Assembly: GCA_012295275.1 (NCBI GenBank)
Contig: CM022672.1
Coordinates: 33,356,001-33,420,000 of the forward strand
Reading direction: 5' to 3'
From: Chrysomallon squamiferum
Lineage: Eukaryota; Animalia; Mollusca
DNA length: 64,000 bases
Shown here in pieces: positions 26,170 through 64,000 of this stretch. The notes beneath the pieces were generated by a model, which was not told the origin of the DNA, did not search any database, and saw only the letters and a program-made list of their open reading frames with translations. The position numbers were made by a program, and so were the translations under genes. The first letter of the stretch is position 1, and each line of letters begins with the position of its first letter.

Positions 26170-29019
26170 ATTATCAATTCAAAGCTGTTAGAGAATAGTT
26201 TCAAAATTGTGTCTGACAAAATGTATTTCATAATGTGTCAATACTATGTGTTCCAAATATTCCTAATGTTGTTTTTTTTTCTAACTGCGCAAAGTATATT
26301 TCCAATGATATGTGAAACCAAAGTTGGTAAAATCATTCATCTGCACTAAAGAAAATAATAATAATAATAAAAAAATCTTTGAAAATTCATAACTTAACTT
26401 CTACTTGTACTACAAACATAGTTTTTAATGCGAAACCGATCAGATTCAAAAGATCCATATGATGAAATACATTCAGAAGTGAGAAATTAGGAAATATGAA
26501 ATGTTATTTTTCCTTTAACAAGTTATAGGTCTCTTCAGCATCAAGGTACAATCTTTGTGCTAATAAAGTCTATATAATAATAAAAATCAATTCTTGAATA
26601 ACCTTTACTCCGGAAAGCGGGTCTCAAAGCACTTAACAATGAGATTATATTAAAAACAAGCTGACAAAAACTGAATCGATAGATAATTACAGTGTAATAG
26701 TATTTACAAAAGTTACATGTAAAAGAAGCAGAAGGTGATTTTCACTTGGATTAGATGTAAGAAGTTACTTTTGAATACATTTCCGAGAAACTGCTTGAAG
26801 GTGTACATGTTATGAGGACAGTGTAAAACCAAATGGAGAGTTATAGCGAGGAAAATATTAAGCTTGTTACATTTAAAACATGTTACATACATAATTAATA
26901 ATAAAATAGGTCATTCTCTTATTCAGTCATCATTTCCAGGGCATTGCCACATCAGCAATAGGATAAAATAAAAAGCTAAATATTACTCAGTAAATAATCA
27001 AAAATAAGGAGGCTATTTGTACTTCATAGCAATGGTTGACATACTAAAGTCATGTGACCAAATATTTTGTTTTGTTTTTTTGAGAATATATTTCTCTAAT
27101 ACAACGAAATGTCAGTTACAAATCAGTTAAACTAGTTTTTACATAGAATGTCTTTAATCTAAATAGATATCATTTGACATTATTGCTCACCCGTTATTTT
27201 TATAATTTAGGAAGTACATATTGTTCTGCTAATTACATATTTCAAACCAAAAAGAAAAAGTATGTCCTAATAAAATATTTAAATAAACATTATTTTGTCT
27301 GTTGGTGAAGAAAGTCACTGGTTCTTGTATAACAATTTGAACGTCGTGTTCTGTAAAGGTTTAAGTTGTTTGTTTGTGACTGGTAGCTATGGCAGGTCTA
27401 CATCGTTCACCTCACTTGAATGCAGGACACACATACGTATTTTCAGTGCGATGATTTATAGCTAAAGCAACGTTAGCAACGTTAACCTTCATAAAATTGT
27501 TCTAATATATCACGGACTAAAAACAGAGAACATTTGAGTACGTAATATATACGATGAATGTACGTAGAAGATCACACTTACTTTTTCTGTGTTAAAACAC
27601 TGAAATAATGCAATCTTCAGTATTAGATGTTTCAGTATTTCTTTGTCTAATTCATCCATGCAATAGCTTATCAGACTCTTTTATTTCTTTTTTTTATTTC
27701 CGATGCGTTTATTTATTCAAATATTAAAATATATTCTTTACTGTGAATTTTGTTAGTCAACAAACATCATTTCAAATATTTCCATGTATTTAATAACAGA
27801 ATATAGTGTGGGAAAATAATAATAATGAATAAATCAACAACAAAACAACAACAAACAAAAAAATGATACCCTGAGCTACTGAATGAGAGTTATATTCTGA
27901 ATATACAGCATATCTGAGTTAAAATAAAATAAAATAAAATAAAGTAAAGTAAAATAAAATAAAATAAAATGAAATAAAATAAAGTAAAATAAAATAAAAT
28001 AAAATAAAGTAAAATAAAATAAAATAAAATTGAATAAAATAAAGTAAAATAAAATAAAATAAAATGAAATAAAATAAAGTAAAATAAAATAAAATAAAAT
28101 AAATGAATAAATAAACGACAACAGATACATTAATAAATAAATGATTCTCTAATGCAACCAAACGTTAGTTAAAAATCAACTAAACTAGTTTTTACATAGA
28201 ATGTCTTTAATGTAATTAGATATCATTTGAAATTATTGCTCACCTGTTATGTTCATAGTTTTGAAACTCCACATTGTTCTGCTAATTACATATTTCAAAC
28301 TAAAAACAAAATGTATGTCCTAATAAAATATTTAAATAAACATTATCTTGTTCGTGTAGACATTCACTGGTTCTTGCGAAACAAATCTTGCATTCAGCCG
28401 ATATTACTGTATAACAATTTGAACGTCTGCTTCTAAAAATGTTTATATTGTTCGTTTGTCAGTCGTAGCTATGGTAGGTCTACTTCGTTCACGTCACTTG
28501 AATGCGGTACACAAACAGCTATTTTGAGTGGAGTGATATATAGATAAAGCAACGTTTACAACAAATATCACTAATCCTATTTGATTCTTTGAATGAGAAA
28601 ATAAAATTCAATGGCTGTTATGTACACGGTTAAGTACTATGACTTGCATATTTACACCACATAATTAGTTAAATAAATTAGACTGTGTTCCATAGTAATT
28701 CACAGAAATCCATTCCATTTAATGCATTCTATACAAATAGCTACTATGATATTCAGAATTTCGCAGCAACAGCGAAAACACACAGAGTGTGAGAATCGTA
28801 TTACAATTTCTTCCCAGGGTATCTTTACAAAAGAGTTCATGTATGAGTTCGTGCGCATTCACCAATATCTAAAGACAGTGTTCAAGAATTGTATGCTTCT
28901 TTAACTTCTAAATGTACTATATTTTAAAATGCTGTCATAAAAAAACATATACATACAAACAAAGACATTGTATATAGATATATATTTAGTATTATTAGTT
29001 TTATGATTATTATTATTAC

Positions 29020-29055
<36 letters not shown>

Positions 29056-30018
29056 TTTTAATTGTATATGTATTAGACTGTATTGTATTTGTTTATTTCT
29101 CATTTCTTAACTACAAATAAAATACTTTTACCATGTCAGTAAGTCCATTATGACTGATCATTTTATACAGAAATGAACGCAGCTAAATTTAGTCTAATGG
29201 TTAAGAACTATTTCCTCGTAGTATTAATACACAGACACTGTAAAAAAATGTTAATTTTATCTGTAGACTTGCCTACTTATAGACGCAGTTAAAACAAGTT
29301 CAAATTAAAATATTGCATTTGGAACGCCACAAATCAATTAAATGAAAATAGTGTCAGCGTAGTTGTAGCTATCATAGCGGAATAAATTAACTGTGCATTG
29401 TGAAAAGAGCTTTTGTGTGAGTATGTCATGTATGTGTAATAATTATGTATTTAATATGTGTATGTTCAGAAAATAACAAAATAATGTTTGGCCACCATTA
29501 GCATTGAGACAGACTCGGCAATAGGTCCGTACAGACAAAAAAAAAACAGACGGTTTGTGCAGCCTGGGCAAGCATTACCGGTTCGTTCTCGTAAACGTTG
29601 CTACTTTTCATTCCAGACACGTTCAGTCGGCGAGAGTTTCTGAGAAACAGCTTATCAAGAAAGAACATCAATGTTTTGTGTTCTGTACATGTCTGTGTGC
29701 AGCTAGGTGGGCTGGCGTTGTCCTGCTGTAATACAATGTTAAGTCCTTGCACTTGAGTAAAAGGTAGAACGTAAGGACGAATGAACGTCATGTCGGTAAT
29801 GTATGAAATGTAATGTATGCAATGTAATACTACACCAAACCAAGACGTTGGTTTTCAGAAACACGTGATATGATGCAACCTTCGTATACTACTAAATTAT
29901 TTACGGGATTACCGCCGTAAAGTCGAAACGGCCCACTGTATTCATACATACATACATACATACATACATACATACATACATACACACACACACATACATA
30001 CATACATACATACACACA

Positions 30019-30052
<34 letters not shown>

Positions 30053-30360
30053 CATACACACATACATACATAAATGACCCATTAGCACTAATACAGGCTT
30101 CGCAACGGCTCCATATAAACAACTACGCTCAAAAAGACTTGTGGTATGGAGTATCATGTGGCCCAAAAACAGGCAAAATACAATTGTGAACACTGCATAT
30201 AACGCACATGCAAGGAACGAAAAAATATCGAAATCAGTGCTTTCATGAATATGAACTGATTTTTCCCGCCTTTAACAATTAGAAGCACGATAACACAGAG
30301 AAACAGCTGACCCGTAGAGAAACTTTAAACAAATTTCAATGCACGCTAGTTTTAGTTTAG

Positions 30361-30399
<39 letters not shown>

Positions 30400-31110
30400 G
30401 TTATCGTGGGTTTTATTTTCTTTACTTTTTTCAGCTTTCCTTTTTTCTTTTTATATTAAATATTATTATTTATTTTTATTTAATCGTTATTTTCATTTGT
30501 AATGTAACGAGTGTTTTTATTTTCAAAGTCATTTCTTATTTTTGTTTTTGTTTCCTTCTTTATTTGTTTACTTTATTAACTTTCTTTATAATGATAATAA
30601 TAATACCTCTTATACGTTATTAATTTAAGTACTCGTTGTATAAAATGGGAACCATTCTGCCAATGAAAAAGAAACACTCATATTTATGTTTGCTTTTTCG
30701 CGCCTTTCAATGGTTTAAGCTGGCACACGTGTTTAGCGAAGCGTTTAGACTTTAATAAACATGACAAAAGCATACTTCGCTTAGCTCGATTCCTTCTACT
30801 TTTGCTGAACGGTCACTGAGTTTTTTACGACTACACAAATTAGCGATTACAATTCCAGCTTCGGCAAGTTTCTTTCTAATGGTTGGCGTATTTCCAGTGA
30901 ACAAATAAAGCCGCCTAACACAAATATAATAATGACACTCGTATGAGTCAGCAGTGTAAAGTTTTGTCACAGCAGGCAGGTTCGACTCTGACAAAAGAAT
31001 GAACTGACTTTCACGTATGAGCTGCTAAACGTAAAGTTGAAAGTAAATGACATTTTTTCTTATATCATTCTGTATAATGCCTTTACTAGATATATTTTGA
31101 TCAGTAAGTA
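26170..31110 (+). repeat. Older diverged direct duplication of blocks 15040-15950, ~17950-18370 and 21330-23800
   Basis: 26170-27070 matches 15040-15950. 27095-27510 and 28150-28560 match the module that follows the ACTA arrays. 28860-31110 matches 21760-23800 with indels. Confidence 0.75.
29500..29800 (-). mobile_element. Tc1 transposase fragment
   Basis: IRPYVLPF...VLQQDNASP and, after a frameshift, LSPTERVWNE. These are the second-D and E regions of a DD34E catalytic domain. Confidence 0.7.
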
Positions 31111-32116: not shown

Positions 32117-33280
32117 ATGTTGGTTTTCGCTGTCCTAACGTTTTCTGCGTTTCTTTACACTTCAGATTCTTTCTGTCTGATGGACAGGTTAAAAATCAAC
32201 ATGACAGGTACGTTAATCATTTCTGTAGTCCGACATTCAAACCAAGGTGTCTTTACAACAAACGTATGTTATTAGTAGTATAGCTTATCTTCTTTGTCTT
32301 CGTTAATTAATTAATATTTATATATATGTCAGCTTGTAAGGAAACTTATGTCTGGTTTTTTTTTTTTTTTTTTTTTTTAGTAAATATCTAGTTAAAACTA
32401 GGGAATTTTATGAATGTGACATTAAAAACCTGGCTGACAGGTGGAAAGAGGACACCGAGAAGAATCATGACTGTAACATATATTTCATATTACCTGTTTT
32501 CAAAAGGGCAGAAACGATAAGGTTGAACATTTACTAAAAGGTGCTGTTTGTATATGTTTACTGATGTCAAAAGAAAGTGAATCTACATTTGTTTATTATT
32601 GTTAAATAAAAAAAAAAGAGAAACCAATGATGATTTTATTTGTTTATTGGCGCTAAAAGGTAATGTTTGTATTTGTTTATTATTCGTAAATGTTATCAGC
32701 TCGTTTTATTAACAATTTAGGCAATTTATATAAATGTATGTGTGTGTGGGTAGTAAAAGATATATATCTATATGTATGTGTGTGTGTATATATATAATAT
32801 ATCCCTCAGCAACAAACACGTACAACACACAGACAGTCAAACACGCACGCACACGCACACACACACACACACACACACAAACAAATGCTATCACTTGTAT
32901 CTAGGACGCGATAAGAAAGAAAAAAGATTAAATATGTTCTTAGGGAGCAAAGATTAACATAGTTTCAGTCATATTATCATAATATGAGAGTGTACTTAAA
33001 TTGGACATTTACTAAATTATTGCTGTTGTTGTAGGTGACGGACAGATGAAAACGTACTGCCAGTTTGACGGTGTTGTGATGTCACTGGGAGATTCTGTTA
33101 AATTCGAGAATAAATGTGTAGAGTGTGAATGTTCATATCATGGACTTTCATGTTGCGGGTATGTATTGTCCTGTATTGGTCAAACAAATAAACTCATTTT
33201 AAATTTCTAAAAACAAATGATGATCAAGATAACGAAGATTATGATGATGACGATGATGATGGTCATGATGATGATTCTTA

Positions 33281-33336
<56 letters not shown>

Positions 33337-33619
33337 TATTATTATTATTATTATTTAGTTTTATTATTATTATTATATCTTATGTATTCACTATCACCTC
33401 GAAGATAAACAGGACCAGTCCCATCGTAATGACACTCCCTCTATCAGATGGCAACACCTTCTTGAAAAAAACACACAAAAAAACCAGCCTCCATTCGTTA
33501 TGGTCTTCATATGAAACGTGACCCCTAAAACTACTACTACTACTACTATTATCACCATCATCATCATTATTGTTATTATTATAATAATAATAATAATTAT
33601 TATTATTATTATTATTATT

Positions 33620-33652
<33 letters not shown>

Positions 33653-33796
33653 ATTGTCGATGTACACAGATATGGTATCAGTGCGGGAGTAATTCAACCT
33701 CCAAACGGATGCATCGTCAAAGCAGACGGTTGCAAAGCTCTGCTGGTGAAGGCTGACGATACGTCACGTGACTGCTCGACGGGAGAGTTACTATGA
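32117..33796 (+). CDS. Beta-microseminoprotein (MSMB/PSP94)-like secreted protein, subtype B, intact, 113 aa; exons 32117-32207, 33035-33158, 33670-33796
   Basis: GT-AG introns in phases 1 and 2. Protein MLVFAVLTFSAFLYTSDSFCLMDRLKINMTGDGQMKTYCQFDGVVMSLGDSVKFENKCVECECSYHGLSCCGYGISAGVIQPPNGCIVKADGCKALLVKADDTSRDCSTGELL has a signal peptide and 10 Cys in the C..C..CxxCxC..CC..C..C..C pattern of MSMB. AATAAA at 33842-33847. Confidence 0.9.
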
Positions 33797-35334: not shown

Positions 35335-37099
35335 GAAATAATGATCTAACAAAGAAGCAAATAAATAAACACAGTATATTTAAATTCAGTTATACATTAG
35401 TACCTAGATAACTCGATAGCTAATATGAATCATTTTTAACACCGGTAGCAATAAGAGTTGACTTATAAAAATAAAACTGTCGTGTCGCGATGTGTCAGAC
35501 GACTGACAAATATTATACAACAATGCGTACACCATTTCTCGTATAGGTGACAAACCATTCTGCTGAGGAAAGAGTTCAAGTGTCAGTTGCAAGGGGCGAT
35601 CTGCCATTTCTAAGATAATAGGCCATTTCATGAAAACGTTCGTATCTGCTGTCAGAAAAACTGATGATGTTTATAGAGGCATTATTTCTTTTGATTAAAA
35701 TACAGAGTTTGATAGGTTTTCTTCAACTACATCGTTATGTTAAACATTTTATTAACATAGGTGGTGATAACCCACCAGGCTCCAGGGTAACGGATCCTGT
35801 GGGTCATGATCTCAAACAGTAAAACTACCTAGAAACAATATACATCAAACTTACTACTAAATTGTATGAGAAGACACCTCTCACTTTCTTCCGTATTTTC
35901 TTTTTTATACGACATACACCACTCTAGTCTATCATCAAGTAAAGTAATACCAGTAATTAAGAATCTAACAGTTATCTGTTCGTTTGAAATGCAGTGGCAT
36001 CCAATCAGCCACCTGACCATGGGACACCATAGTAGTCTCCTACAGAAAATGGCTTATTGGTCACCAACTCCACATTCATTATGTTCGCCCAGTGTACCAG
36101 CGAACCATATGGCTGATCGAAGAAAACTGCATTAAGAAGTGAACAGAAATTTCTAACAAAAACCCAACCCTTTACAGCATCTATGAAATATGTGTTATCA
36201 CCTCAATCGATCCCAGTTTCTCCTATCATACCAGATCCCGCTGCAAAATGCTCATGAAAGCAAGTCTAAAGTTTCAAGTTATCTCCGTGACCTCCGTGAT
36301 CATCAAACGGAACCGCTGTCTTCTCCAACCGCCCGCTTCCCGCTTCTCCCTCCATACCCAGAACCAGAGCCTGGACTCAAACCTGATTGAGTTTCTGAGG
36401 ACGTTGGTGAATCCCGAGGAACCAAAGAGAAAAGAGAAACCATTAGGCGGGTCAAATTTCAAAGGTGCTTTAGTTCCTCAAACAAAACTGATCGCTATTT
36501 AATGTAACTTCAAAATTTAAAAACTCGGTTTTGTGTATATTCGTGTAAAAGAACTAATTATTAGCAGATGTTGACAGTCAGAAACAGATTATTTACATAT
36601 TATTACTATCAATACATGTTTAACATCTGTCGTTACTTCATCTTTTCTTTATTTCGTATACAGAGGCTAGATTATCTCAAGAATATACAAATAAAAATTA
36701 ATACTTTAATAATATAAACATAGTTAGTTAAAAGAACTGTGTCTAATGAAATACAGTTTCATAGATAACCGGGTTTTACGTTAAACAAAGACAAGGTCGT
36801 CTATCTTCCTCACCACTCTACTCTGTTTCATGTTTCACGCAAAGAGAATTGGCTCTGTCTTTCCCAGGTGCAGAGACAATTTATTATCAATTAGCAACGC
36901 AATGTTCATTCTAGTCCATTTTAAAGTTATTGCTGAATTTCTGTTGTGTTTCTCTCTAGCAATAGCAGTGCAGTCGTCGGTATAGAATTATAATTTACCC
37001 TAGACTTCTAATGGGATATCGTTGTGTGTGAGTATATATATATGTATGTGTATATTATATGTATGTAGGTATTTATGTATGTATGCATCAATATATGTA

Positions 37100-37144
<45 letters not shown>

Positions 37145-37404
37145 TTGATACACACAGACAAACACAAACACACATAAATTCATACACATATGTACATTTA
37201 TATACATAAATACATACGTACATCCATAAATATGTATGTGTGTGTGAATATATACATATACATCAACATATACGCATACGCACTCGTTCTACGTGGATAA
37301 TGATAATAATAACAGAGCACATGGTATTAGAAGAAGTAGAAAAAGAAGAAGAAGAAGAAATGGAAGAAGCATAAGAAGAAAACGAATAAGAAAAAAAGAG
37401 AAAG

Positions 37405-37436
<32 letters not shown>

Positions 37437-37460
37437 AGAAGAGCAAGAAACAGTAATAAC

Positions 37461-37913
37461 CCGCAACATGAGAGGCCAAAACCAGTGCATGTGCACTTTG
37501 TACACTTCTCCTCTACTTTATACGTGTCGCCAACGTCTGATTGTCTACCATCTTCATCTTTACAGTGTTTACCCACAGAACCTGTACATAAAATAATATA
37601 AATATGCACTGTTTATTCCGCCATTATTAAAATTAACATGATCATACTGACGAAAATTATGTTGTTGATGATGACGTTTTATAGAGGTAGTAGGAGTGGT
37701 AGTAGTAATAATGATAATGATCATGATAATTATGATGTTGGTGATGAAGATAGTAGTAGCAGTAGTAGTAGTAATAGTAAGTAGATGAAAATAGTAGTAG
37801 CAGTAGTAGTATTAATAGTAAGTAGATGAACATTGCAGTAGCTGTAGTAGTAGCAGTCATGTAAAAAAGGAGACATAGTAGTACCAGCAGTAGTAGTAAC
37901 TTGGGTGATAATA

Positions 37914-37944
<31 letters not shown>

Positions 37945-38280
37945 ACATCGGCAGCAACAACAATAACAATTATTATTATAACATTAATCTATGTTTAGAA
38001 GTATTGGAAGTAGCAATTTACTAGTAGTGGATAATAGTAGCCGTAGTGGTAGTAGTAGTAGTAGTTATCGACGCAGTGGTGATCGTTGCAGTGGTATAAG
38101 TAGTAGTAGTCGTAATAATAATGGAACAGCATCAGCAACTTATTGAACCTATTTTCCAAAGACTGCAGTAATATAAATTATTATGTTCTACTTACCGAAT
38201 GGTTTAGGGCTGTAAAGTAAACAGCTTGAATCCGTACTTGTAAGAGAATTTAAAACACATAGCAGAATGAAAAGCAACAT
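37461..38280 (-). pseudogene. MSMB-like subtype A copy lacking exon 3; exons 38280-38196 and 37581-37461
   Basis: MLLFILLCVLNSLTSTDSSCLLYSPKPF|GSVGKHCKDEDGRQSDVGDTYKVEEKCTKCTCTGFGLSCCG with intact splice sites. Intron 2 is cut at ~37020 and no minus-strand exon 3 follows in the window. Confidence 0.8.
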
Positions 38281-44454: not shown

Positions 44455-45230
44455 GTGATTCTGTGGACCAAGTCGATTGGCAAATTTAACTGAATTTTTA
44501 TGTGTGAATTTGTTGTTCTTATAAACACTTTTACTTAAACAGTAGGATTAGCACCGTGCAGCAGATGTTGTATTGATTTTAAGTATTTTAAACTATGTCA
44601 CCAAAAAGAAATTATAATAATACAAATTAAAATCAAATAAATTGAAATGAAATAAAAACTAAATTGAAAAAAAAAAGAAACAAGAAAATAATTATAAAAT
44701 TAAAATTAAAAGGTCAATAATCTATTTCATGATGGTATAATACTATCGTCATCATACTATACAGAACAAGCTTTCATTCCTGTTTCTATCTCATCTAGTT
44801 ACGATGGATTTATCACCCTAGCAGAAGGGTGAGGAGATGTCACCCGCAGTTTCTCAATATATGTATGTGTGTCTTAAACTTCATTTAACAGCACTAAATA
44901 AGAAACAGCAAACCGTTAGACACCAACAGTAGACTCCAGATACAGGAACAGTATAACTATAAACTGGCAAATCATTTCTTTTATAACACAAAAGATTAGA
45001 ATATACAACATGAAATGATATGGTCGAATCATCCTGATTTGACATAAAAAAAAACATAAAGAAATAAAAAAAAAATTATGATGAAACATACGCCCCAACT
45101 GAATATTAATAAGCTTGAACAAAATGACTACATGAGTTAGAAAAATTCAGCTAGCAAAATATTTTATTTCAGTTTTACTTTCGTTTTACAGTTACGCAAA
45201 AGTTCTTTCACTTTCATAGTAACTTTCCCG

Positions 45231-46032
45231 TCAAGCGTCACGTGACGTATCGTCAGCCTTCACCAGCAGAGCTTTGCAACCGTCTGCTTTGACGATGCAT
45301 CCGTTTGGAGGTTGAATTACTCCCGCACTGATACCATATCTGTGTACAACGACAATAACAACAACAACAACAACAACAACAACAATAATAATAATAATAA
45401 TAATAATAACAATAATGATGATGATAGTCATAATAGTAGTAGTAGTAGCAGAAGTAGTAGTAGTAATGGTGATGGCAGTAGTGTTAGTAATATGTACGCA
45501 CACACACACACACGGGTTTTGCAGTTATGAAAATTGAAAAGTAGCTTCACTTTCAACTGGTTTATATATATATAAAAAAAAAAAAAAAATGTTTTAGGGG
45601 TCACGTTTCATGTGAAGACCATAACGAATGGAGGCTGGTTTTTTGTGTGTTTTTTTCCAGAAGGTGTTGCCATCTGATAGAGGGAGTGTCATTATGATAG
45701 GACTGGTCCTGTTTATCTTCGAGGTCATAGTAAATACATAATATTATAATAATAATAAAACTGAATAATAATAATAATAATAATGATAAGAATCATCATC
45801 ATGAACATCATCATCGTCATCATCATAATCTTCGTTATCTTGATCATCATTTGTTTTTAGAAATTTAAAATGATTTTATTTGTTTGACCAATACAGGACA
45901 GTACATACCCGCAACATGAAAGTCCCTGATATGAACAGTGACACTCTATACATTGATTCTCGAATTTAACAGAATCTCCCGGTGACATCACAACACCGTC
46001 AAACTGGCAGTACGGTTTCATATGTCCGTCAC
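45231..46032 (-). pseudogene. MSMB-like subtype B copy without exon 1; exons 46032-45909 and 45339-45231
   Basis: DGHMKPYCQFDGVVMSPGDSVKFENQCIECHCSYQGLSCCG|YGISAG...TSRDA*. A 1-bp deletion removes the tenth Cys, and intron 1 homology breaks at ~46280. Confidence 0.82.
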
Positions 46033-47763
46033 CTACAACAACAGCAATAATTTAGTAAATGTCCAGTTTAACTACACTCTCATATTATGATAATGTGACT
46101 GAAATTATGTTAATCTTTGCTCCCTAAGCACATATTTAATCTTTTTTCTTTCTTATCGCGTCCTAGATACAAGCGACGGCATTTGTGTGTGTGTGTTGTA
46201 CGTGTTTGTCGCTGAGGGATATATAGATATATATCTTTTACTATTCACATACACAGATATATATATATATATATATAAATTGACCATCATCATCGTCATC
46301 GACAGTTTTATTTTGATAAGTCAGCTGTTATTGCTACCGGTGTTAAGAACGATTCATATTAGCTGTCGAGTTATCCAGGTACTAATGTATAACTGAAATT
46401 AAATATACTGTGTTTATTTATTTGTTTCTTTGTTAGATCATTATTTCTTATTTATTTATTTATTTATTCATTCTTTCTTCTTTTTTTCTGTAACTTTTTT
46501 TACAAATTTAGTTAATACTAAACATGAAAAAATGAATACAAATAATAAATAATAAAAAAATAAACAGTAATAATAACGTTTCTCATTTTTCTTCTCTTTA
46601 TTTTTATTTTTCTGTTTAATTTTTAATTCTGTATTTGTATTTTGCTACCATATTTATTTATTTTTTACTTTTTTGGATATTTTTTAGTAATAAAATGACA
46701 TCTGTTACTGAATGTCTATTTTTGAATAGTATTTCGTTTCTTTACGTAGTATTTATATTATTATTTTTATTTAACGAACCATGACTCATAAACAAATACA
46801 GTACATACATGTACACCGTATGGAGACTGAAATATCGATTTATATACACTTACACACGACAGAAAGAAAGAAAAGAGAAAAAAGTTAAAAGAACGAACGA
46901 AGGAAAGAACAACAAAAAAAAGACTGATACTCAGACAGACACACATACAGAAATATAGAGATTATAGACAGGTAGTTAGTTATGGAGGCGGCTAGACAGA
47001 AAGAAAAAAGAAAGGCAGATAGAGAAGCTGACAGAAATCGCACGGACAGATGGAAATGTGTCTTTATAAGACATATAGATTGCTATAGAGACACATCACT
47101 CGTGCAGGAACTCGTGATGGGATGATAAATCGTTATACAACTAACCATTCAACAAAAGCCGATGGGTGATAGAATGAACAAACTATATATACTTGATATG
47201 ACTCTGTGTGTGTGTATGTCTATGTGTTTGTCTGTCGGTGTGTGTATGTATACTTGAGATGACTGTGTGAGTGTGTGTGTGTGTGATTGTGTGTGTGTGT
47301 GTTTGTGTCTCGGTATGTGTATGAATTGTGGATAAAAACACATGTCAAACAAGCACATAAACGTAAAGATGCACATATAAGAATTCAAATATAACACAAA
47401 CCCATACGTTATACACATTCTAAATTAACATATACACACGGACATAGAGAAATCCAGAAACGGACACTAAATTAGAAATATACTGTAATTAATATATTAC
47501 AAGATATCCTAGCACAAAGCAAGAAAAAAAAAGAGAAATAAGAATAATAATAATCCTCTGTTGATTGTTTTTGTTATTCAGTCAGCGGTGTTTGTTTTCT
47601 TTTAATTAATCATTTCACAATGAAATATGCTATTTTTCTTTGTTTCGTATTACTAAAAAAAGCAAAAAAAACCCCAACAAAACAACAATTATCTACAATA
47701 AATGCTTCACAAAATCCGCAACAGCAGTTCAGGAATAGAAAGGTCAGAGTAAGATCTGAAGAA

Positions 47764-48095
47764 ATGTTGCTTTTCATTCTGCTATGTGTTTTAGATTTTC
47801 TTACAAGTACGGATTCAAGCTGTGTCGATTACACACCTCAAACATCCAGTAAGTAGAACATGATAATTTATATTACTGCAGTTTTTGGAAAATAGGTTCG
47901 ATAAGTTGCTGATGCTGTTCCATTATTACTACGACTACTACTACTTATACCACTGCAACTATCACCACTGCATCGATACCTACTACTACTACCACTACGG
48001 CTACTATTATCCACTACTAGTAAATTGCTACTTCCAATACTTCTAAACATAGATTAATGTTATAATAATAATTGTTATTCTTGTTGCTGCCGATG

Positions 48096-48163
<68 letters not shown>

Positions 48164-48987
48164 TATTATCACCCAAGTTACTACTACTGCTGGTACTACT
48201 ATGTCTCCTTTTTTATATGACTGCTACTACTACAGCTACTGCAATGTTCATCTACTTACTATTACTACTACTACTGCTGCTACTATCTTCATCATCAACA
48301 ACATAATTTTCGTCAGTATGATCATGTTCATTTTAATAATGGCGGAATAAACAGTGCATATTTATATTATTTTATGTACAGGTTCTGTGGGTAAACACTG
48401 TAAAGATAAAGATGGTAGACAATCAGACGTTGGCGACACGTATAAAGTAGTGCACATGCACTGGTTTTGGCCTCTCATGTTGCGGGTTATTACTATTTCT
48501 TGCTCTTCTGTTTTGTTTGTTTGTTTTTTTGGTTCTTGCTCTTTTTTTCTTATTCGTTTTCTTCTTATACTTCTTTCATTGTTTCTTCATCTTCTTTTTC
48601 TACTTCTTCTAATACCATGTGCTCTGTTATTATAATCATTATCCACGTAGAATGAGTGCATGCATATGTATGCATGTGTATGCGTATATGTATATGTAGA
48701 TGTATGTGTATATATTCACACACACATACATATTTATGTATGTACATATGTATTTATGTATATAAATGTACATATGTGTATGAATTTATGTCTGTTTGTG
48801 TTTTTGTGTGTGTATCAAACCAGTTGAAAGTAAAACTACTTTTCAATTTTCATAACTGCAAAACCCGTGTGTGTGTGTGTGTCTGTGTGTGTGTGCGCGT
48901 ACATATTACTAACACTACTGCAATCACCATTATTACTACTAATTCTGCTACTACTACTACTATTATCACCATCATCATCATTATTGA

Positions 48988-49039
<52 letters not shown>

Positions 49040-49217
49040 TATTGTTGTTGTTGTTGTTGTTGTTGTTCTTGTTATTGTCGTTGTACACTGATATGGTATC
49101 AGTGCGGGAGCAATTCAACCTCCAGACGGATGCATCGTCAAAGCAGACGGTTGCACACCTCTGCTGGTGAAGGCTGACGATACGTCACGTGACTGCTTGA
49201 CAGGAGAGTTACTATGA
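47764..49217 (+). pseudogene. Chimeric MSMB-like copy (exons 1A' 47764-47848, 2A 48382-48485, 3B 49091-49217)
   Basis: Exon 1 is intact (…SSCVDYTPQTS). Exon 2 has a 17-bp frameshifting deletion, and the exon 3 acceptor is AG>TG. Intron 2 switches from A-type to B-type sequence at ~48815. Confidence 0.85.
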
Positions 49218-50196
49218 AAGTGAAAGAACTTTTGCGTAACTGTAAAACGAAAGTAAAACTGAAATAAAATATTTTGCTAGCTGAATTTTTCTAACTCATG
49301 TAGTCATTTTGTTCACGCTTATTAATATTCAGTCGGGGTATATGTTTGATCATAGAATTTATTATTTGTTTTATATTTGTTTATGTCAAGCCAGGATGAT
49401 TCGACCATATCATTCAGAGAGGACTATGTCAATGAAACTTTGAAAATAACAGCCTTTTCATAATCATTTATTTATTGCCAGTGTGTTCCAACAAAGATAT
49501 ATATTTTTAATAATGCAAATTTCATGTTGTATATTCTAATCTTTTGTGTTATAAAAGAAATTATTTGCTAGTTTACAGTTATACTGTTCCTGTATCTGGA
49601 ATCTACTGTTGGTGTCTAACGGTTTGCTGTTTCTTATTTAGTGCTGTTAAATGATGTTTAAGACACACATACATATATTGAGAAACTGCGGGTGACATCT
49701 CCTCACCCTTCTGCTAGGGTGATAAATCCATCGTAACTAGATGAGATAGAAACAGGAATGAAATATTGTTCTGTATAGTATGATGACGATAGTATTATAC
49801 CATCATGAAATAGATTATTGACAATTTAATTTTAATTTTATTATTATTTTCTTGTTCCTTTTTTTCAATTTAGTTTTTATTTCATTTTAATTTATTTAAT
49901 TTTATTTTTTACTATTATTTCATTTTAATTTATTTAATTTTAATTTTTATTATTATTTCATTTTAATTTATTTAATTTTAATTTTTATTATTATTTCATT
50001 TTAATTTATTTAATTTTAATTTTTATTATTATTTCTTTTTGGTGACATAGTTTAAAATACTTAAAATCAATACAACATCTGCTGCACGGTGCTAACCCTA
50101 CTGTATAAGTGAAAGTGTTTATAAGAACAACAAATTCACACATAAAAATTTTGTTAAATTTGCCAGTCATACAATCGACTGGGTCTACAGAATGAC

Positions 50197-50333
<137 letters not shown>

Positions 50334-50664
50334 AATGATAATAATAGCATCCATAATCATTCCAACATCACTCCAGCTGCCCAGCTACGACAGCAACAAA
50401 AACAATAAATAAAACAATAATAATAATATCAAATAAATTTTAAATTTTAAATAAATAAAAAAATAATTTAAAAAAAAAGAAAACGAAAGATTAGATTTGA
50501 TCTAGCAATGCAAAAATTATGTTTAAAAAAATGATAATAATACAAAATAAAAAATAAAAATAAGATAAATAAGGTAAAATAAAAATTAAATTAAATCAAA
50601 TCAATAACACATATATAATAATTATGTTGCAACATGTATCTTTCCAGGTGTTTGTGAGTGTGTC

Positions 50665-50765
<101 letters not shown>

Positions 50766-51154
50766 AGTTTATTTTAATTTTTTTAAATTAATATATTTTG
50801 TGTGCTGTACTATAATTTACATCATACGTGTGTAAATCTTCTTATATATCAACTCTGGTTCGCTACCTGCTTAGCAAACATCTTTCTGTTACAGTTTATG
50901 GTAACTTAGGGTATCTTTTTCCAAGTTGACTAAGTTAGAAATGTCACATAGGTATAGAAGAACGTTTCTGTTCGTTCTTCTCAGTTTTGCTGATGTTCTC
51001 GTAACCTTGGATGCAGGCTGCTTGATAATGACAATTGTTACGTTCAGAACAGGTCAACTATTTTAATGATATTCGATTTAGTATATACGTGTATGTAAGT
51101 ATGTATGTATATATGTATTATGTATGTATCATCTATCTATCTATCCATCCATCC

Positions 51155-51232
<78 letters not shown>

Positions 51233-51980
51233 ATTATATTAATTAGTTTTGAAAAGTTCAGCGTTTTAGTGATAAGGATTTTTGCAACATCCAGGTAGAT
51301 CAAAATATAAAGTTAAATAAATTTAAAAACAAAAATGAAATGAAATGAAGCATAATAGCACATACCCACACAAGCACAAAACAAATATCACCTCTCTTTG
51401 CAATCTATCTTTATATATGCTGTTATTTATCTGTGTGTTTGATTGTCTGCTTTTCTGTCTGCCTGTCGTTTTCATATATTATCTGTATTCCTTATTAACA
51501 TCTAGACACTATAAAAATATTAGATACATGAAAAATTTTACGAGCATAGTTAAAAATAATAATAGTAGTAGTAGTAGTAGTATCATAATTATTATTACAG
51601 TAATAATGGTAATGATTATAACAATAACAGTAATAATAATAACAATAATAAATTAAAATATGTTTTTCATTGTAGAATAGGACTGTTAGGTTATGCTGGC
51701 CGGCGAATATGTTAAAACTAGATAATAAATATTTATACTGCTACTGCAGAGCCAACTTCCTATCTTGCTGTTGGTTGCCTTTCATTGATGTTTCATGAAA
51801 TCATTTCTGATATACAATATAAAGCTATTTTTCTTGTTGTTGCTGCTGCATACGATGATGATGACAATGATGACGATGATGGTTGCAGTTTCAAAACTAA
51901 CACAAAAGAAACAGATAAAGAAGGAAACAGGAGATAAACGTTATTTTTTGTTTTCAACCAACTGTTCGGATTCATCTATG

Positions 51981-52101
51981 CTAATTAAAGTTGCATTTTC
52001 GAGTGGTGTTGTTCTTATCCATTAACATCGGTTTGCAGTTGTCTCCCTTTTTCACGATACATCCTTCAGGAACGAAAATTGCAACACCGGCAACACCATA
52101 C
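51981..52101 (-). pseudogene. Orphan MSMB-like exon 3C
   Basis: YGVAGVAIFVPEGCIVKKGDNCKPMLMDKNNTTRKCNFN*. Homology to 60150-60279 ends at the exon's first base, so the acceptor is lost. Confidence 0.8.
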
Positions 52102-52822
52102 TTAATTACAAATAAAATACGTTTGTCTTCGTAAATTAATTAATATTTATATATATGCCAGGATGTAAGGAAACTTATATCTGTATTTTTATTTTTTAAG
52201 AGAATATCTAGTTAAAACAAAGGAATTTTATGAATGTGACATTAAAAACCTGGCTGACAGGTGCAAAGTGGACTCAGAGAAGAATGATGACTGTAACATA
52301 TATTTCATATTACCTGTTTTCAAAAGGGCAGAAACGATAAGGTTGAACGTTTACTAAAAGGTGCTGTTTGTATATGTTTACTGGTGTTAAAAGAAAGTGA
52401 ATCTACATTTGTTTATTATTGTTAAAAAAAAAAAAGAGAAACCAATGTTGATTGTATTTGTTTATTGTTATAAAGTAATGTTTGTATTTGTTTATTATTC
52501 GTAAAGGTTATCGGCTCGTTTTATTAACAATTTAGGCAATTTATATAAATGTATGTGTGTGTGCGTAGTAAAAGATATATATCTATATGTATGTGTGTGT
52601 GTATATATATACATATCCCTTAGCAACAAACACGTACAACACAGAGACAGTCAAACACACACACACACACATATGCTGTCACTTGTATCTAGGACAAGAT
52701 AAGAAAGAAAAAAGATTAAATATGTTCTTAGGGAGCAAAGATTAACATAGTTTCAGTCATATTATCATAATATGAGAGTGTAGTTAAATTGGACATTTAC
52801 TAAATTATTGCTATTGTTGTAG

Positions 52823-53330
52823 GTGACGGACATATTAAACCGTACTGCCAGTTTGACGGTGTTGTGATGTCACCGGGAGATTCTGTTAAATTCGAGAATA
52901 AATGTATAGAGTGTCACTGTTCATATCAGGGACTTTCATGTTGCGGGTATGTACTGTCCTGTATTGGTCAAACAAATAAAATCATTTTAAAGTTCTAAAA
53001 ACAAATGATGATCAAGATAACGAAGATTATGATGATGACGATTATGATGGTCATGATGATGATTCTTATCATTATTATTATTATTATTATTATTCAGTTT
53101 TATTATTATTATAATATTATGTATTTACTATGACCTCGAAGATAAACAGGACCAGTCCCATCGTAATGAAACTCCCTCTATCAGATGGCAACACCTTCTT
53201 GAAAAAGACACACAAAAAACCCAGCCTCCATTCGTTATGGTCTTCATATGAAACGAGACTCCTAAAACTACTACTACTACTACTATTATCACCATCATCA
53301 TCATTATTGTTATTATTATAATTATTATTA

Positions 53331-53392
<62 letters not shown>

Positions 53393-53560
53393 GTTGTTGT
53401 TGTTGTTGTTCTTGTTATTGTCGTTGTACACAGATATGGTATCAGAGCGGGAGCAATTCAACCTCCAGACGGATGCATCGTCAAAGCAGACGGTTGCAAA
53501 CCTCTGCTGGTGAAGGCTGACGATACGTCACGTGACTGCTTCACAGGAGAGTTACTATGA
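52823..53560 (+). CDS. MSMB-like subtype B exons 2 and 3 (52823-52946, 53434-53560), open and spliceable but without their own exon 1
   Basis: DGHIKPYCQFDGVVMSPGDSVKFENKCIECHCSYQGLSCCG|YGIRAGAIQPPDGCIVKADGCKPLLVKADDTSRDCFTGELL* with intact AG/GT sites and a downstream AATAAA. Homology to gene 32117 starts at ~52120, within intron 1. May be a pseudogene. Confidence 0.6.
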
Positions 53561-58150: not shown

Positions 58151-58181
<31 letters not shown>

Positions 58182-59062
58182 TTGTCTGTCGGTGTGTGTA
58201 TGTATTCTTGAGATGACTGTGTGAGTGTGTGTCTGTGTGTTGGTGTGTGTGTGTGATTGTGTGTTTGTGTTTGTGTGTCGGTATGTGTATGGATTGTGTA
58301 TAAAAACACACATCAAACAAGCACATAAACGTAAAGATGCACATATAAGAATTCAAATATAACACAAACCCATACGTTATACACATTCTATATTAACATA
58401 TTCACACGGACATAGAGAAATCCAGAAACGGACATTAAATTAGAAATATACTGTAATTAATGTACTACAAGATATCCTAGCACAAAGCAAGAAAAAAAAA
58501 GAGAAATAAGAATAATAATAATCCTCTGTTGATTGTTTTTGTTATTCAGTCAGCGGTGTTTGTTTTCTTTTAATTAAGCATTTCACAAAGAAATATGCTA
58601 TTTTTCTTTGTTTCGTATTACTAAAAAAAGCAAAAAAAACCCAACAAAACAACAATTATCTACAATAAATGCTTCACAAAATCCGCATCAGCAGTTCAGG
58701 AATAGAAAGGTCAGAGTAAGATCTGAAGAAATGTTGCTTTTCATTCTGCTATGTGTTTTAAATTCTCTTACAAGTACGGATTCAAGCTGTTTACTTTACA
58801 GCCCTAAACCATTCGTTAAGTAGAACATGATAATTTATATTACTGCAGGTTTTGGAAAATAGGTTCGATAAGTTGCTGATGCTGTTCCATTATTACTACG
58901 ACCACTACTACTTATACCACTGCAACTATCACCACTGCATCGATAACTACTACTACTACCACTACGGCTACTATTATCCACTACTAGTAAATTGCTACTT
59001 CCAATACTTCTAAACATAGATTAATGTTATAATAATAATTGTTATTGTTGTTGCTGCCGATG

Positions 59063-59102
<40 letters not shown>

Positions 59103-59950
59103 TATTATCACCCAAGTTACTACTACTGCTGGTACTACTATGTCTCCTTTTTTACATGACTGCTACTACTACAGCTACTGCAATGTTCATCTACTTCCTA
59201 TTAATAGTACTACTGCTACTACTATTTTCATCTACTTACTATTAATACTACTACTGTTACTACTAACTTCATCACTAACATCATAATTATCATGATCATT
59301 ATCATTATTACTACTACCACTCCTACTACCTCTATAAAACGTCATCATCAACAACATCATTTTTGTCAGTATGATCATGTTAATTTTAATAATGGCGGAA
59401 TAAACAGTGCATATTTATATGATTTTATATACAGGTTCTGTGGGTAAACACTGTAAAGATAAAGATGGTAGACAATCAGACGTTGGCGACACGTATAAAG
59501 TAGAGGAGAAGTGTACAAAGTGCACATGCACTGGTTTTGGCCTCTCATGTTGCGGGTTATTACTATTTCTTGCTCTTCTTCTGTTGTTGTTTTTTTTTTT
59601 TTTTCTGACTCTTTTTTTCTTATTCGTTTTCTTCTTATGCTTCTTCCATTGCTTCTTCTTCTTCTTTTTCTACTTCTTCTAATACCATGTGCTCTGTTAT
59701 TATTATCATTATCCACGTAGAATGAGTGCATGCATATGTATACATGTGTATGCGTATATGTAGATGTATGTGTATATATTCACACACACATACATATTTT
59801 TGTATGTACGTATGTATTTATTTATCTAAATGTACATATGTGTATGAATTTATGTGTGTTTGTGTCTGTGTGTGTGTATCAATATATATATATATATTGA
59901 TGCATACATACCTAAATACCTACATACATATAATATATAGACACACATAT
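53990..59950. repeat. Inverted duplicate of ~37050-43760; 52120-55100 is also a direct duplicate of ~32290-35530
   Basis: Colinear high-identity matches, including the LINE fragment, microsatellites and type-A exons. Confidence 0.82.
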
Positions 59951-60279
59951 ATATATATACACACACAGAGAAACACAAACGCACATAATTTCATACACAT
60001 ATTTACATTTATGTACAAAAATACATACGTACATATATATATGAATTTGTTTCTTATCGGTTTAATATAGTTGATTATAATAGTAGGTCTTTCTGTGTGT
60101 AATTATTTTATGTATTTTTTGAAATCATTAAAATATTATAAAAGTACAGGTATGGTGTTGCCGGTGTTGCAATTTTCGTTCCTGAAGGATGTATCGTGAA
60201 AAAGGGAGACGACTGCAAACCGATGTTAATGGATAAGAACAACATCACTCAAAAATGCAACTTTAATTGGCGTAGATGA
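58731..60279 (+). pseudogene. MSMB-like subtype A, all three exons (58731-58815, 59435-59555, 60150-60279), intron 1 donor GT>TT
   Basis: Would encode 111 aa: MLLFILLCVLNSLTSTDSSCLLYSPKPFGSVGKHCKDKDGRQSDVGDTYKVEEKCTKCTCTGFGLSCCGYGVAGVAIFVPEGCIVKKGDDCKPMLMDKNNITQKCNFNWRR, with 10 mature Cys. The donor reads G|TTAAGT versus G|GTAAGT in the 38196 copy. Confidence 0.78.
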
Positions 60280-60683
60280 ATCCGAACAGTCTGTTGAAAA
60301 AAACAAAATAAAACAAAATAAAATTGTCTCCTGTTTCGTTCTTTATTTGTTTCTTTTATGTTAATTTTGAAACTGTAATCATCATCGTCATCATTATCAT
60401 CATCATCATACGCAGCAGCAACAACGACAGCAACAAGAAAAGCTTTATATTGTCTACCACAAATGGTTTGATGAAACATTAATGGATGCCAATACAGACC
60501 GACAAGAAAGGAAATTGGCTCAGCAGTAGCAGTGTAAACATTTATTCTCTTGTTTTAACATATTCGCCCGCCAGCATAACATAATAGTCATATTGTTTTA
60601 ATTTATTGTTATCACCATCATCATCATCATGATCATTATCACAGTTGTTATTATTATTATTATAATAATAATGATACAACTAT

Positions 60684-60765
<82 letters not shown>

Positions 60766-61091
60766 TATGCTCGTGAGACTTTTCATGTATCTAATCATTT
60801 TTATTGTGTCTGGATGTCAATAAAACATATAAGGATAATGTATGAAAAATACAGACAACAGAAAAACAGACAATGACACAGATAACTAACAGAATATAAA
60901 GATAGATTACGAAGAGAGGTGATATTTGTTTTGTGCTTGTGTGTGTTTGTGCTATTTTGCTTCATTTCATTTTCTTTATTTTTTTTATTTTTTTTCATTT
61001 ACTTCATTTTATATTTTGATCTACCTGGATGTTGCAAAAATCCTTATCACTAAAACGCTGACCTTTTCAAAACAAATTAATATATATATAC

Positions 61092-61138
<47 letters not shown>

Positions 61139-61528
61139 TATATATACATACATACATACATACATATATACACGTATACACTAAATCGAATATCATTAAA
61201 ATAGTTGTCGTCGTTTCACCGTTGTTTAACACACAGACCTGTTCTGAAGGTATCAGTTCTCATTATCAAACAGCATGCATCCAAGGTTACGAGAACATCA
61301 GCAAAACCGAGAAGAACGAACAGAAACATTCTTCTATACCTATGTGACATTTCTAACTTAGTCAACTTGGAAAAAGATACCCTAAGTTACCATAAACTGT
61401 AACAGAAAGATGTTTGCTAAGCAGGTAGCGAACCAGAGTTGATATATAAGAAGGAGATTTACACACGTATGATGTAAATTATAGTACAGCACACAAAATA
61501 TATTAATTTAAAAAAATTAAAATAAAAT

Positions 61529-61678
<150 letters not shown>

Positions 61679-62014
61679 AAAGACACACTCACAAACACCT
61701 GGAAAGATGCATGTTGTAACATAATTATTATATATGTGTTATTGATTTGATTTAATTTAATTTTTATTTTACCTTATTTATCTTATTTTTATTTTTTATT
61801 TTGTATTATTATCATTTTTTTAAACATAATTTTTTCATTGCTAGATCAAATCTAATCTTTCCTTTTCTTTTTCTTTAAATTCTTTTTTTTATTTATTTAA
61901 AATTTAAAATTTATTTGTTATTATTATTGTTTTATTTATTGTTTTTGTTGCTGTCGTAGCTGGGCAGCTGGAGTGATGTTGGAATGATGATGGATGCTAT
62001 TATTATCATTATTA

Positions 62015-62145
<131 letters not shown>

Positions 62146-63103
62146 GTCATTCTGTAGACCCAGTCGATTGTATGACTGGCAAATTTAACTAAATTTTTAT
62201 GTGTGAATGTGTTGTTCTTATAAACACTTTTACTTATACAGAAGGGTTAGCACCGTGCAGCAGATGTTGTATTGATTTTAAGTATTTTAAACTATGTCAC
62301 CAAAAAGAAATAATAATAAAAATTAAAATTAAATAAATTAAAATGAAATAATAATAAAAATTAAAATTAAATAAATTAAAATGAAATAATAATAAAAATT
62401 AAAATTAAATAAATTAAAATGAAATAAAAACTAAATTGAAAAAAAGGAACAAAAATAATAATAAAATTAAAATTAAATTGTCAATAATCTATTTCATGAT
62501 GGTATAATACTATCGTCATCATACTATACAGAACAACCTTTCATTCCTGTTTCTGTCTCATCTAGTTACGATGGATTTATCACCCTAGCAGAAGAGTGAG
62601 GAGATGTCACCTGCAGTTTCTCAATATATGTATTTGTGTCTTAAACATCATTTATCAGCACTAAATAAGAAACAGCAAACCGTTAGACACCAGCAGTAGA
62701 TTCCAGATACAGGAACAGTATAACTGTAAACTAGCAAATCATTTCTTTTAGAACACAAAAGATTAGAATATACAACATGAAATTTGCATTATTATAAATA
62801 TATATGTTTGTTGGAACACACTGGCAATAAATAAAAAGGCTGATTATTATAAAAAGGCTGTTAGTTTCAAAGTTTCAAAGTTTCATTGACATAGTTCTGT
62901 CTGAATGATATGGTCGAATCATCCTGGCTTGACACAAAAAAAATCAAAAAATATAAAAAAATGTTCTATGATCAAACATACGCCCCGACTGAATATTAAT
63001 AAGCGTGAACAAAATGACTACATGAGTTAGAAAAATTCAGGTAGCAAAATATTTTATTTCAGTTTTACTTTCGTTTTACAGTTACGCAAAAGTTCTTTCA
63101 CTT

Positions 63104-63230
63104 TCATAGTAATTCTCCCGTCCAGCAGTCACGTGACGTATCGTCAGCCTTCACCAGCAGAACTTTGCAACCGTCTGCTTTGACGATGCATCCGTCTGGA
63201 GGTTGAATTACTCCCGCACTGATACCATAT
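63104..63230 (-). CDS. MSMB-like exon 3B of a further copy whose 5' exons probably lie beyond the window
   Basis: Intact CAG acceptor; YGISAGVIQPPDGCIVKADGCKVLLVKADDTSRDCWTGELL*; downstream AATAAA. Confidence 0.75.
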
Positions 63231-63519
63231 CTGTGTACAACGACAATAACAACAGCACAAAAAACAACAACAACAACAACAATAATAATAATAATAATAA
63301 TAATCATAATAAGAACAATAATGACGATGATGGTGATAATAGTAGTAGTAGTAGTAGTAGTAGTAGAAGTAGTAGTAGTAATGGTGATGGCAGTAGTGTT
63401 AGTAATATGTACGCGCACACACACAGACACACACACATACACGGGTTTTGCAGTTATGAAAATTGAAAAGTAGCTTCACTTTCAACTGGTTTATAAAAAG
63501 TAAAAAAAAAATGTTTCAG

Positions 63520-63965
63520 TGGTCACGTTTCATATGAAGAGGATAACGAATGGAGGCTGTTTTTTTTTTTTGTTTTTTGTTTTCCAGAAGATGTTGCCGT
63601 CTGATGGAGGGTGTGTCATTATGATGGGAGTGGTCCATTGGGCACGTGAGGACACCACAGGTCATCGTTAACGAAAGGTTAAGGGAAAACGGTTACATCG
63701 ACATTCTGCTTCCTTTGATTTTTCTGACCCAGCCACGTGATATCATTTATCAGCATGACAGTGCCAAAGCCCATACAGCCAGAATCGTAGACATCTTCGT
63801 TAGTGTAGCAACGTCAACGTGGTGTAATCATTGCCTGCTTAACAGAGATGTCGCAAGGAAAACACCAGTGGGATGTCATTACTCGCCGTGTGCGACAACA
63901 TCCTCAGGCGTCAACTTGTATTTTACACAGGCTTTGTTGCAGGGGTTTGTGGGTTTTTTAAATTA
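63520..63965 (+). mobile_element. Tc1 transposase remnant in intron 2 of the last MSMB-like copy
   Basis: KMLPSDGGCVIMMG (cf. GGGSVMVWG), RTPQVIVNERL...YIDIL and IIYQHDSAKAHTARIV (cf. FQxDNAxxHxAR). Confidence 0.72.
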
Positions 63966-64000
63966 TCATCATCAATAAAGTCATTATCATTATTATTATC

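What the first reader, a model, noticed from the sequence alone, without database searches (positions are those of the whole stretch)
48790..48860. A/B exon-shuffling breakpoint in intron 2
Intron 2 follows A-type sequence (as at 59556-59880) up to ...GTGTGTATC at ~48815. It then continues as B-type intron (AAACCAGTTGAAAGT..., as on the minus strand at ~45560 and ~63490), putting exon 3B behind exon 2A. Both subtypes share intron phases 1 and 2, so any intronic recombination keeps the frame, giving a combinatorial 2x2x2 exon system.
Basis: partly seen in the sequence, partly recalled or inferred. Interest (0 to 1): 0.7.

Follow-up and report, generated by a model that had tools for sequence, protein, structure and literature searches.

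The report
Broken hybrid gene at inversion join
Two related genes for small secreted proteins are joined inside an intron, likely because a hairpin-forming stretch of DNA broke and a segment flipped; the hybrid gene is damaged in two places, so it is likely ordinary debris of a reshuffled gene cluster and not an exon-mixing system.

Summary
The join is real; the combinatorial reading is not supported. At 48816/48817 an A-type intron 2 switches to B-type with a 2-nt overlap, and public contigs carry the join. The genes are beta-microseminoprotein (PSP94)-like. The hybrid is broken: a 17-nt deletion frameshifts exon 2, and the exon-3 acceptor reads CTG; no AG yields a ten-cysteine product. The join is the left end of an inverted block: 48817-52101 is the reverse complement of 60150-63493 and still carries the orphaned A exon 3. 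A and B introns are unrelated, so homologous shuffling is unlikely; shared phases are expected of paralogues. Only 1 of 6 mixed A/B orders exists, and it is 1 of 7 joins examined. A intron 2 holds the strongest hairpin of 319 windows, and both joins that cut this intron lie 9 and 20 nt from its loop: likely hairpin-tip breakage with end joining or template switching. Variation between copies is mostly amino-acid substitution. Open lead: exon A'1 could splice in frame to the promoterless B2-B3 downstream; untested.

The parts
47764..47848 (+). A' exon 1 (signal peptide, first mature Cys); ATG and GT donor intact; last 28 nt differ at 10 sites from both other A copies
48382..48485 (+). A exon 2 with a 17-nt frameshifting deletion; otherwise identical to the 59435 copy (0/104)
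48486..48816 (+). 5' part of A intron 2, ending at the inner end of the left arm of the intron's inverted repeat
48817..48818 (.). A/B join: 2-nt overlap shared by both donors
   Evidence: public contigs
48817..49090 (+). 3' part of B intron 2; ends in CTG instead of CAG
49091..49217 (+). B exon 3, open frame, without a canonical acceptor
48817..52101 (.). inverted block, reverse complement of 60150-63493 (B3, C1, C2, A3)
50962..51052 (+). subtype C exon 1, start codon reads ACG
51676..51773 (+). subtype C exon 2 relic
51972..52101 (-). orphan A exon 3, cut at its first base, early stop near the end; likely the original exon 3 of A'
   Evidence: assignment inferred
52102..52121 (.). right end of the inverted block: 20-nt filler of unknown origin, then B intron 1 on plus
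52823..53560 (+). B exons 2 (52823-52946) and 3 (53434-53560), intact splice sites, no exon 1 of their own
58731..60279 (+). full A gene (58731-58815, 59435-59555, 60150-60279); exon-1 donor reads TT
59796..60042 (.). inverted repeat in A intron 2: 96-nt arms, 83% complementary, 55-nt spacer; whole only in this copy
60500..61329 (-). second subtype C copy: exon 1 (61329-61239) and exon 2 relic (about 60620-60500); no C exon 3 found
63104..63230 (-). B exon 3 convergent with the A gene; its intron 2 leaves B sequence at 63636
32117..33796 (+). B gene with all splice sites and frame intact (32117-32207, 33035-33158, 33670-33796), 113 aa, ten Cys
37023..38280 (-). A exons 1 and 2 (38280-38196, 37581-37461); intron 2 cut at 37023, again in the inverted repeat; no exon 3
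45214..46032 (-). B exons 2 and 3, no exon 1, 1-nt gap in exon 3

Best explanation
The join is the left end of an inverted 3.3-kb block in a cluster of beta-microseminoprotein-like genes, likely made when an inverted repeat in A intron 2 broke near its hairpin tip and was rejoined to unrelated B intron 2 DNA, leaving a hybrid that is frameshifted, lacks its last acceptor and is likely a pseudogene. Shown: the join, the 2-nt overlap, the inverted block, both lesions, the hairpin-capable repeat, two independent cuts beside its loop. Inferred: a duplicate of the convergent unit A-> <-C <-B held a complete, diverged A' gene; the break removed 267 nt of A intron 2 with the exon-3 acceptor and flipped the B3-C-A3 segment, by end joining or replication template switching (these two cannot be told apart here); a further join attached the right end to B intron 1. 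That B3 fell in phase behind A2 is a by-product of ancestral intron phases. The family appears to diversify by duplication and amino-acid substitution (inferred).
For: Inverted block and neighbouring direct and inverted duplications. 2-nt overlap here; 1-nt overlap, or 4, 20 and 27-nt fillers, at four other joins, the pattern described for NHEJ/FoSTeS in PMC2583991 (passages). No A/B intron homology: intron 2 score 34 against shuffle maximum 37; intron 1 score 38 against 37, in a (TA)n tract; exons only 51-58% identical. Lesions, and no AG giving a ten-Cys product, 0 of 14. Hairpin -63.7 kcal/mol, z -11.2, 0 of 200 shuffles, strongest of 319 windows. 2 of 3 A copies are cut 9 and 20 nt from its spacer. 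Breakage at palindrome centres is described in PMC4940405 (passages). The orphan A3 sits at the far end of the block.
Against: The hairpin link rests on two cuts, noticed after the fact (chance about 2.7%); the repeat is imperfect and has a 55-nt spacer, unlike the near-perfect spacerless human palindromes. The right end does not continue into B intron 2 as a simple inversion would, so more than one step is needed. Hybrid exon 2 has 0/104 substitutions (P=0.058 at 2.7%) and exon 3B an open frame, which would also fit a spell as a working hybrid. The order of join and lesions is unknown. The two lesions were not checked in reads.
Confidence: 0.77

Rival explanations
1. The same accident made a working A'1-A2-B3 hybrid protein that decayed later, or is still intact in other individuals.
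For: Phases match; exon 3B is open and exon 2 unchanged apart from the deletion; A' exon 1 diverged fast, 10/28 against 26/959 in flanks, P=9e-9.
Against: Two separate lesions. The orphan A3 also carries only amino-acid changes (5 of 5 codons), which fits a complete A' gene before the inversion equally well.
Confidence: 0.1
2. The A2/B3 join lies inside a long first intron: A' exon 1 is spliced to the promoterless B2-B3 at 52823-53560, giving an A'1-B2-B3 protein. Compatible with the origin given in the best explanation.
For: All splice sites canonical; 111 aa, ten Cys, native C-terminus. A'1 is intact and fast-evolving; B2-B3 are intact but lack exon 1.
Against: Needs skipping of the damaged exon 2, whose splice sites are intact, and passing 14 AATAAA motifs between 47849 and 53600, among them the one conserved after every B3. 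Any phase-1 pair of paralogous exons gives such a frame. Another orphan B3 is also intact, so intactness says little.
Confidence: 0.07
3. A combinatorial 2x2x2 exon system: recurring intronic recombination between A and B makes mixed genes.
For: One A-A-B order exists and phases are shared.
Against: 1 of 6 mixed orders, and broken; no intron homology; the other 6 of 7 joins do not put one subtype's exon behind the preceding exon of another.
Confidence: 0.03
4. Assembly error joining two paralogues.
For: Repeat-rich region with inverted copies; no long read was examined.
Against: Contigs of 2 of 4 runs carry the join with 0 differences; flanks differ from all other copies by about 2-6%, so it is not a collapsed copy.
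Confidence: 0.03

Closest known systems
Beta-microseminoprotein / PSP94 family (Pfam PF05825; MSMB, MSMP, USM); nearest protein found XP_013382441.1 of Lingula anatina (P0002)
   Same: Ten Cys with matching spacing; 41-46% identity of P0002 to B exons 2 and 3 in order; three coding exons as in MSMP; tandem clusters and fast change (PMC3268785 passages; PMC5638244 passages).
   Different: A hybrid of two subtypes was not seen in the listings or passages read; no close relative was found.
[quoted passage not shown]
   Same: Same family; array with an inverted segment, inactive fragments and accelerated evolution (PMC6609765 and PMC7150969 passages).
   Different: There the inversion moved whole genes; 'chimeric' does not occur in either main text.
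Complex rearrangements by NHEJ or FoSTeS/MMBIR; palindrome-mediated (PATRR) breakage
   Same: Short overlaps or fillers, mixed orientations (PMC2583991); cuts near the centre of an AT-rich inverted repeat (PMC4940405).
   Different: Repeat is 83% complementary with a 55-nt spacer, on one partner only; the B side is a T-run/(TA)n tract; germ-line events in an invertebrate cluster.
Chimeric fusion genes and pseudogenes in tandem clusters (HBD/HBB, CYP21A1P/A2)
   Same: 5' part of one paralogue joined to the 3' part of another (listings and abstract starts only).
   Different: The globin fusions arise by conversion and unequal crossing-over between homologous sequence (abstract start); here the introns are unrelated and the join is an inversion end.

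Membership tests
Beta-microseminoprotein / PSP94 | Ten conserved Cys in the mature protein | tested here: met
   B gaps 18,18,2,1,6,0,14,6,13; A 14,19,2,1,6,0,14,7,13; P0002 24,18,2,1,6,0,13,7,13. Not met by the hybrid as it stands.
Beta-microseminoprotein / PSP94 | Pfam PF05825 above its cut-off | tested here: inconclusive
   Single exons only: 17.2-17.8 bits against 22; 2 of 5 exon-2 copies match. The best relative P0002 passes, 23.5 bits. Whole spliced proteins were not scanned.
Beta-microseminoprotein / PSP94 | Closest relative is a named member | tested here: met
   3 hits at E<=0.001: P0002 beta-microseminoprotein-like, P0003 PSP94-positive, P0001 an unrelated-looking repeat protein.
Beta-microseminoprotein / PSP94 | Signal peptide and two-domain beta fold | tested here: inconclusive
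   Hydrophobic N-terminus seen by eye; no predictor or fold run.
Combinatorial exon-shuffling system | Compatible intron phases | tested here: met
   Phases 1 and 2 in A and B.
Combinatorial exon-shuffling system | Several mixed exon orders | tested here: not met
   1 of 6 mixed A/B orders among 10 gene units in the window; rest of genome not held.
Combinatorial exon-shuffling system | Mixed gene keeps frame and splice sites | tested here: not met
Combinatorial exon-shuffling system | Shared intron homology or a recurring recombination signal | tested here: not met
Combinatorial exon-shuffling system | Mixed transcripts expressed | not tested
   No RNA was laid.
NHEJ/FoSTeS-type complex rearrangement | Joins with 0-5 nt overlap or short filler, no long homology | tested here: met
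   5 of 7 joins resolved to this pattern; one lies in a (TG)n tract, one has no second donor in the window.
Palindrome-mediated breakage | Cuts at the centre of an AT-rich inverted repeat | tested here: inconclusive
   2 of 2 cuts 9 and 20 nt from the spacer; small number, imperfect repeat.
Palindrome-mediated breakage | Hairpin or cruciform forms in vivo | not testable with these tools
   Only predicted.

The most novel reading that the evidence does not exclude
A fragile intronic hairpin repeatedly re-plumbs this cluster, and one product works: the fast-evolving A' exon 1 is spliced past the dead A2/B3 exons to the promoterless B2-B3 (or on to A2/A3 at 59-60 kb), so one promoter makes hybrid microseminoproteins with a new N-terminal binding strand; or the A-A-B hybrid is intact in other individuals.
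Probability: 0.12. Interest if true: 0.6.

Novelty: new member of a known kind. Interest (0 to 1): 0.27.

Why it matters
As read here it is a clear example of birth and death in a PSP94-like cluster, with a candidate cause for recurrent breakage (an intronic hairpin cut in 2 of 3 copies), and a warning that an in-phase exon order is no evidence of exon shuffling. If the read-through or intact-allele case held, it would show hybrid PSP94-type proteins with swapped terminal strands, the surface that binds CRISP partners in vertebrate members (PMC7150914 passages).

Tried and rejected
No whole genome held. Word-based homologue searches with exon 2B, exon 2A and the exon-3 alignment found nothing (weak by the tool's own note), so mixed proteins in relatives could not be sought. 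Atlas hits 0.84 to PSP94 clusters are leads only. PDB hits were above E=0.01, SSP-2 at 0.18-0.21. No RNA holder listed. Runs X1 and X6 show no contig over the join, but a filter drops records and they show no A-type intron piece longer than 31 letters there, so this is no evidence of absence. Contig depths were not used as copy number. Fillers have no template longer than 8 nt within 400 nt. Microsatellites do not mark joins in general: 3 of 13 donor ends lie within 10 nt, against 16% of the region. A Tc1-like reading of 63625-63975 (recalled motif) was not confirmed by Pfam. The route A'1-A2-C2-B3 meets a stop at the last joint and is not among the native-ended products. Earlier findings: none by place, words or sequence. 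Simple reciprocal inversion rejected because the right end joins B intron 1 on plus.

Full report
Setting. The window is 30% G+C, microsatellite-rich DNA with one 200-N gap; no whole genome is held. It is animal DNA, likely a mollusc (inference from the family's range and the look of the DNA; not tested). From 32 to 64 kb it holds a cluster of three-exon genes for small Cys-rich proteins.

Family. Exon 2A matches Pfam PSP94 below the cut-off (E=0.0076, 17.2 bits against 22). A profile of five exon-2 copies found 3 proteins among 1.84 billion. P0002 is a beta-microseminoprotein-like protein of Lingula anatina, passes the PSP94 cut-off and aligns in order to B exons 2 and 3 at 41-46%. P0003 is PSP94-positive; P0001 is a repeat protein hit over 13 positions and set aside. 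Both full-length readings have ten mature Cys with P0002's spacing. The ten-Cys pattern, tandem clusters, fast change and mollusc members are described in PMC3268785 (passages and section 10) and a tandem array in PMC5638244 (passages).

Inventory. DNA profiles of each exon give ten gene units: B1B2B3 (32117, intact), A1A2 (38280, minus), B2B3 (46032, minus, 1-nt gap), the hybrid A'1A2B3 (47764), C1C2 (50962), A3 (52101, minus), B2B3 (52823), A1A2A3 (58731, exon-1 donor TT), C1C2 (61329, minus) and B3 (63230, minus), plus three stubs of C exon 1. C is a third subtype with no exon 3 in the window. One of ten units has every signal intact (C copies and the orphans lack exons).

The observation. 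A-type intron 2 runs to 48818 and B-type starts at 48817, with two shared bases. Exon trees place hybrid exon 2 with A and exon 3 with B. Of 4 runs laid, X5 spans the join in one 0-difference contig, X7 in two overlapping ones; both belong to one study and either may be the window's source. No long read was examined.

Why it is not a combinatorial system. The hybrid's exon 2 lacks 17 nt, which shifts the frame and turns the exon end to phase 0, and intron 2 ends in CTG; none of 14 AG sites from the donor to the end of exon 3 gives a ten-Cys protein with the B C-terminus. These lesions were not checked in reads. One of six mixed A/B orders is present. A and B introns do not align beyond shuffles except in a (TA)n tract and exons are 51-58% identical. 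Shared phases 1 and 2 are what paralogues inherit (inference; a search for MSMB with 'intron phase' gave 0 papers).

What the join is. 48817-52101 is the reverse complement of 60150-63493; 47221-48816 is a direct copy of 58175-59880. So a duplicate of the convergent unit A-> <-C <-B has its inner part flipped, 267 nt of A intron 2 are gone, and A exon 3 lies reversed at the far end, cut at its first base, followed by a 20-nt filler and B intron 1 on plus. The region also holds a direct copy (32.4-37.0 kb) and an inverted copy (37.0-46.2 kb) of the unit at 52-60 kb. Seven joins were examined: five show a 1-2 nt overlap or a 4-27 nt filler, one lies in a (TG)n tract and one has no second donor here. 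This fits end joining or template switching as reviewed in PMC2583991 (passages).

Likely trigger. A intron 2 holds an inverted repeat with 96-nt arms, 83% complementary, 55 nt apart. It folds at -63.7 kcal/mol, z -11.2, and is the strongest of 319 windows of 280 nt (median -19.8; next -43.0, its own cut copy). The finding's join cuts at the 59882 equivalent and the independent join at 37023 at the 59967 equivalent, 9 and 20 nt from the spacer on opposite arms. Two of three A copies are cut there; the third keeps the repeat. Chance is about 2.7%, computed after the fact on two events. Breakage at the centre of AT-rich palindromes with end joining is described in PMC4940405 (passages), for more perfect repeats. 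On the B side the cut follows a T-run, 28 nt from the start of a 140-nt deletion found in two other B copies.

How the family varies. 27 of 29 variable codons among same-subtype exons change the residue, one to a stop (crude P=0.029, inflated by codons with several changes). A' exon 1 differs at 10 of its last 28 nt against 26 of 959 in flanks (P=9e-9); the orphan A3 differs mostly near its C-terminus, and four B3 copies have four different residues after the last Cys. In vertebrate PSP94 the N- and C-terminal strands form the binding edge (PMC7150914 passages). I infer that A' was a complete, diverged gene that the inversion destroyed; a short conversion tract from an unseen paralogue would also explain exon 1.

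What stays open. The order of join and lesions is unknown, so a once-working hybrid is not excluded. A'1 joined to B2-B3 at 52823 would give 111 aa with ten Cys through canonical sites, as would three longer routes to A3, but needs exon skipping and passage of 14 AATAAA motifs. No RNA was tested.

Literature. Nine searches; in the listings and in passages of seven papers I saw no hybrid MSMB-like gene. Snake SSP arrays have inversions, fragments and accelerated evolution (PMC6609765, PMC7150969 passages). No supplements were read; the library lacks most subscription papers.

Verdict. A real join and a likely pseudogene in a rearranged PSP94-like cluster, with a candidate fragile hairpin. New member of a known kind; interest 0.27.

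Noticed in passing
47821-47848: Mature part of A' exon 1 differs at 10 of 28 nt from both other A copies, all changed codons altering the residue, amid flanks at 2.7%: selection or a short conversion tract.
   Followed up: partly
50962-51773 and 61329-60500: Third subtype C (exons 1 and 2, no exon 3); a join cuts C exon 1 in three further copies (34395, 43622, 54113).
   Followed up: partly
58816-58817: Exon-1 donor of the only full A gene reads TT; real lesion or base error.
   Followed up: no
52101-52122: Right end of the inverted block falls exactly at the first base of A exon 3, with a 20-nt filler of unknown origin.
   Followed up: partly
49091-49217: Hybrid exon 3 is closest to the 53434 copy (3/126) while its flanks are closest to the 63 kb copy: likely conversion among B copies.
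   Followed up: partly
51017-52017: Divergence from the 60-61 kb copy rises to 8-19% around C exon 2, against 0-6% in the rest of the block.
   Followed up: no
8512-11438: Two long minus-strand ORFs; the 532-aa one has a sacsin domain (PF25794, E=3e-13).
   Followed up: partly
5203-8311: Long short-unit tandem satellite running into the 200-N gap.
   Followed up: no
63625-63978 and 29498-29854: Short ORFs recalling Tc1/mariner transposase motifs (from memory); no Pfam support.
   Followed up: partly
15452-31102: Further local duplications (e.g. 17942-18461 with 19509-20026, 99%) and pieces shared with the spacer at 35-36.8 kb; no family exon found there.
   Followed up: no
237-701 minus: Frame with a signal-peptide-like stretch; no Pfam match.
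   Followed up: no
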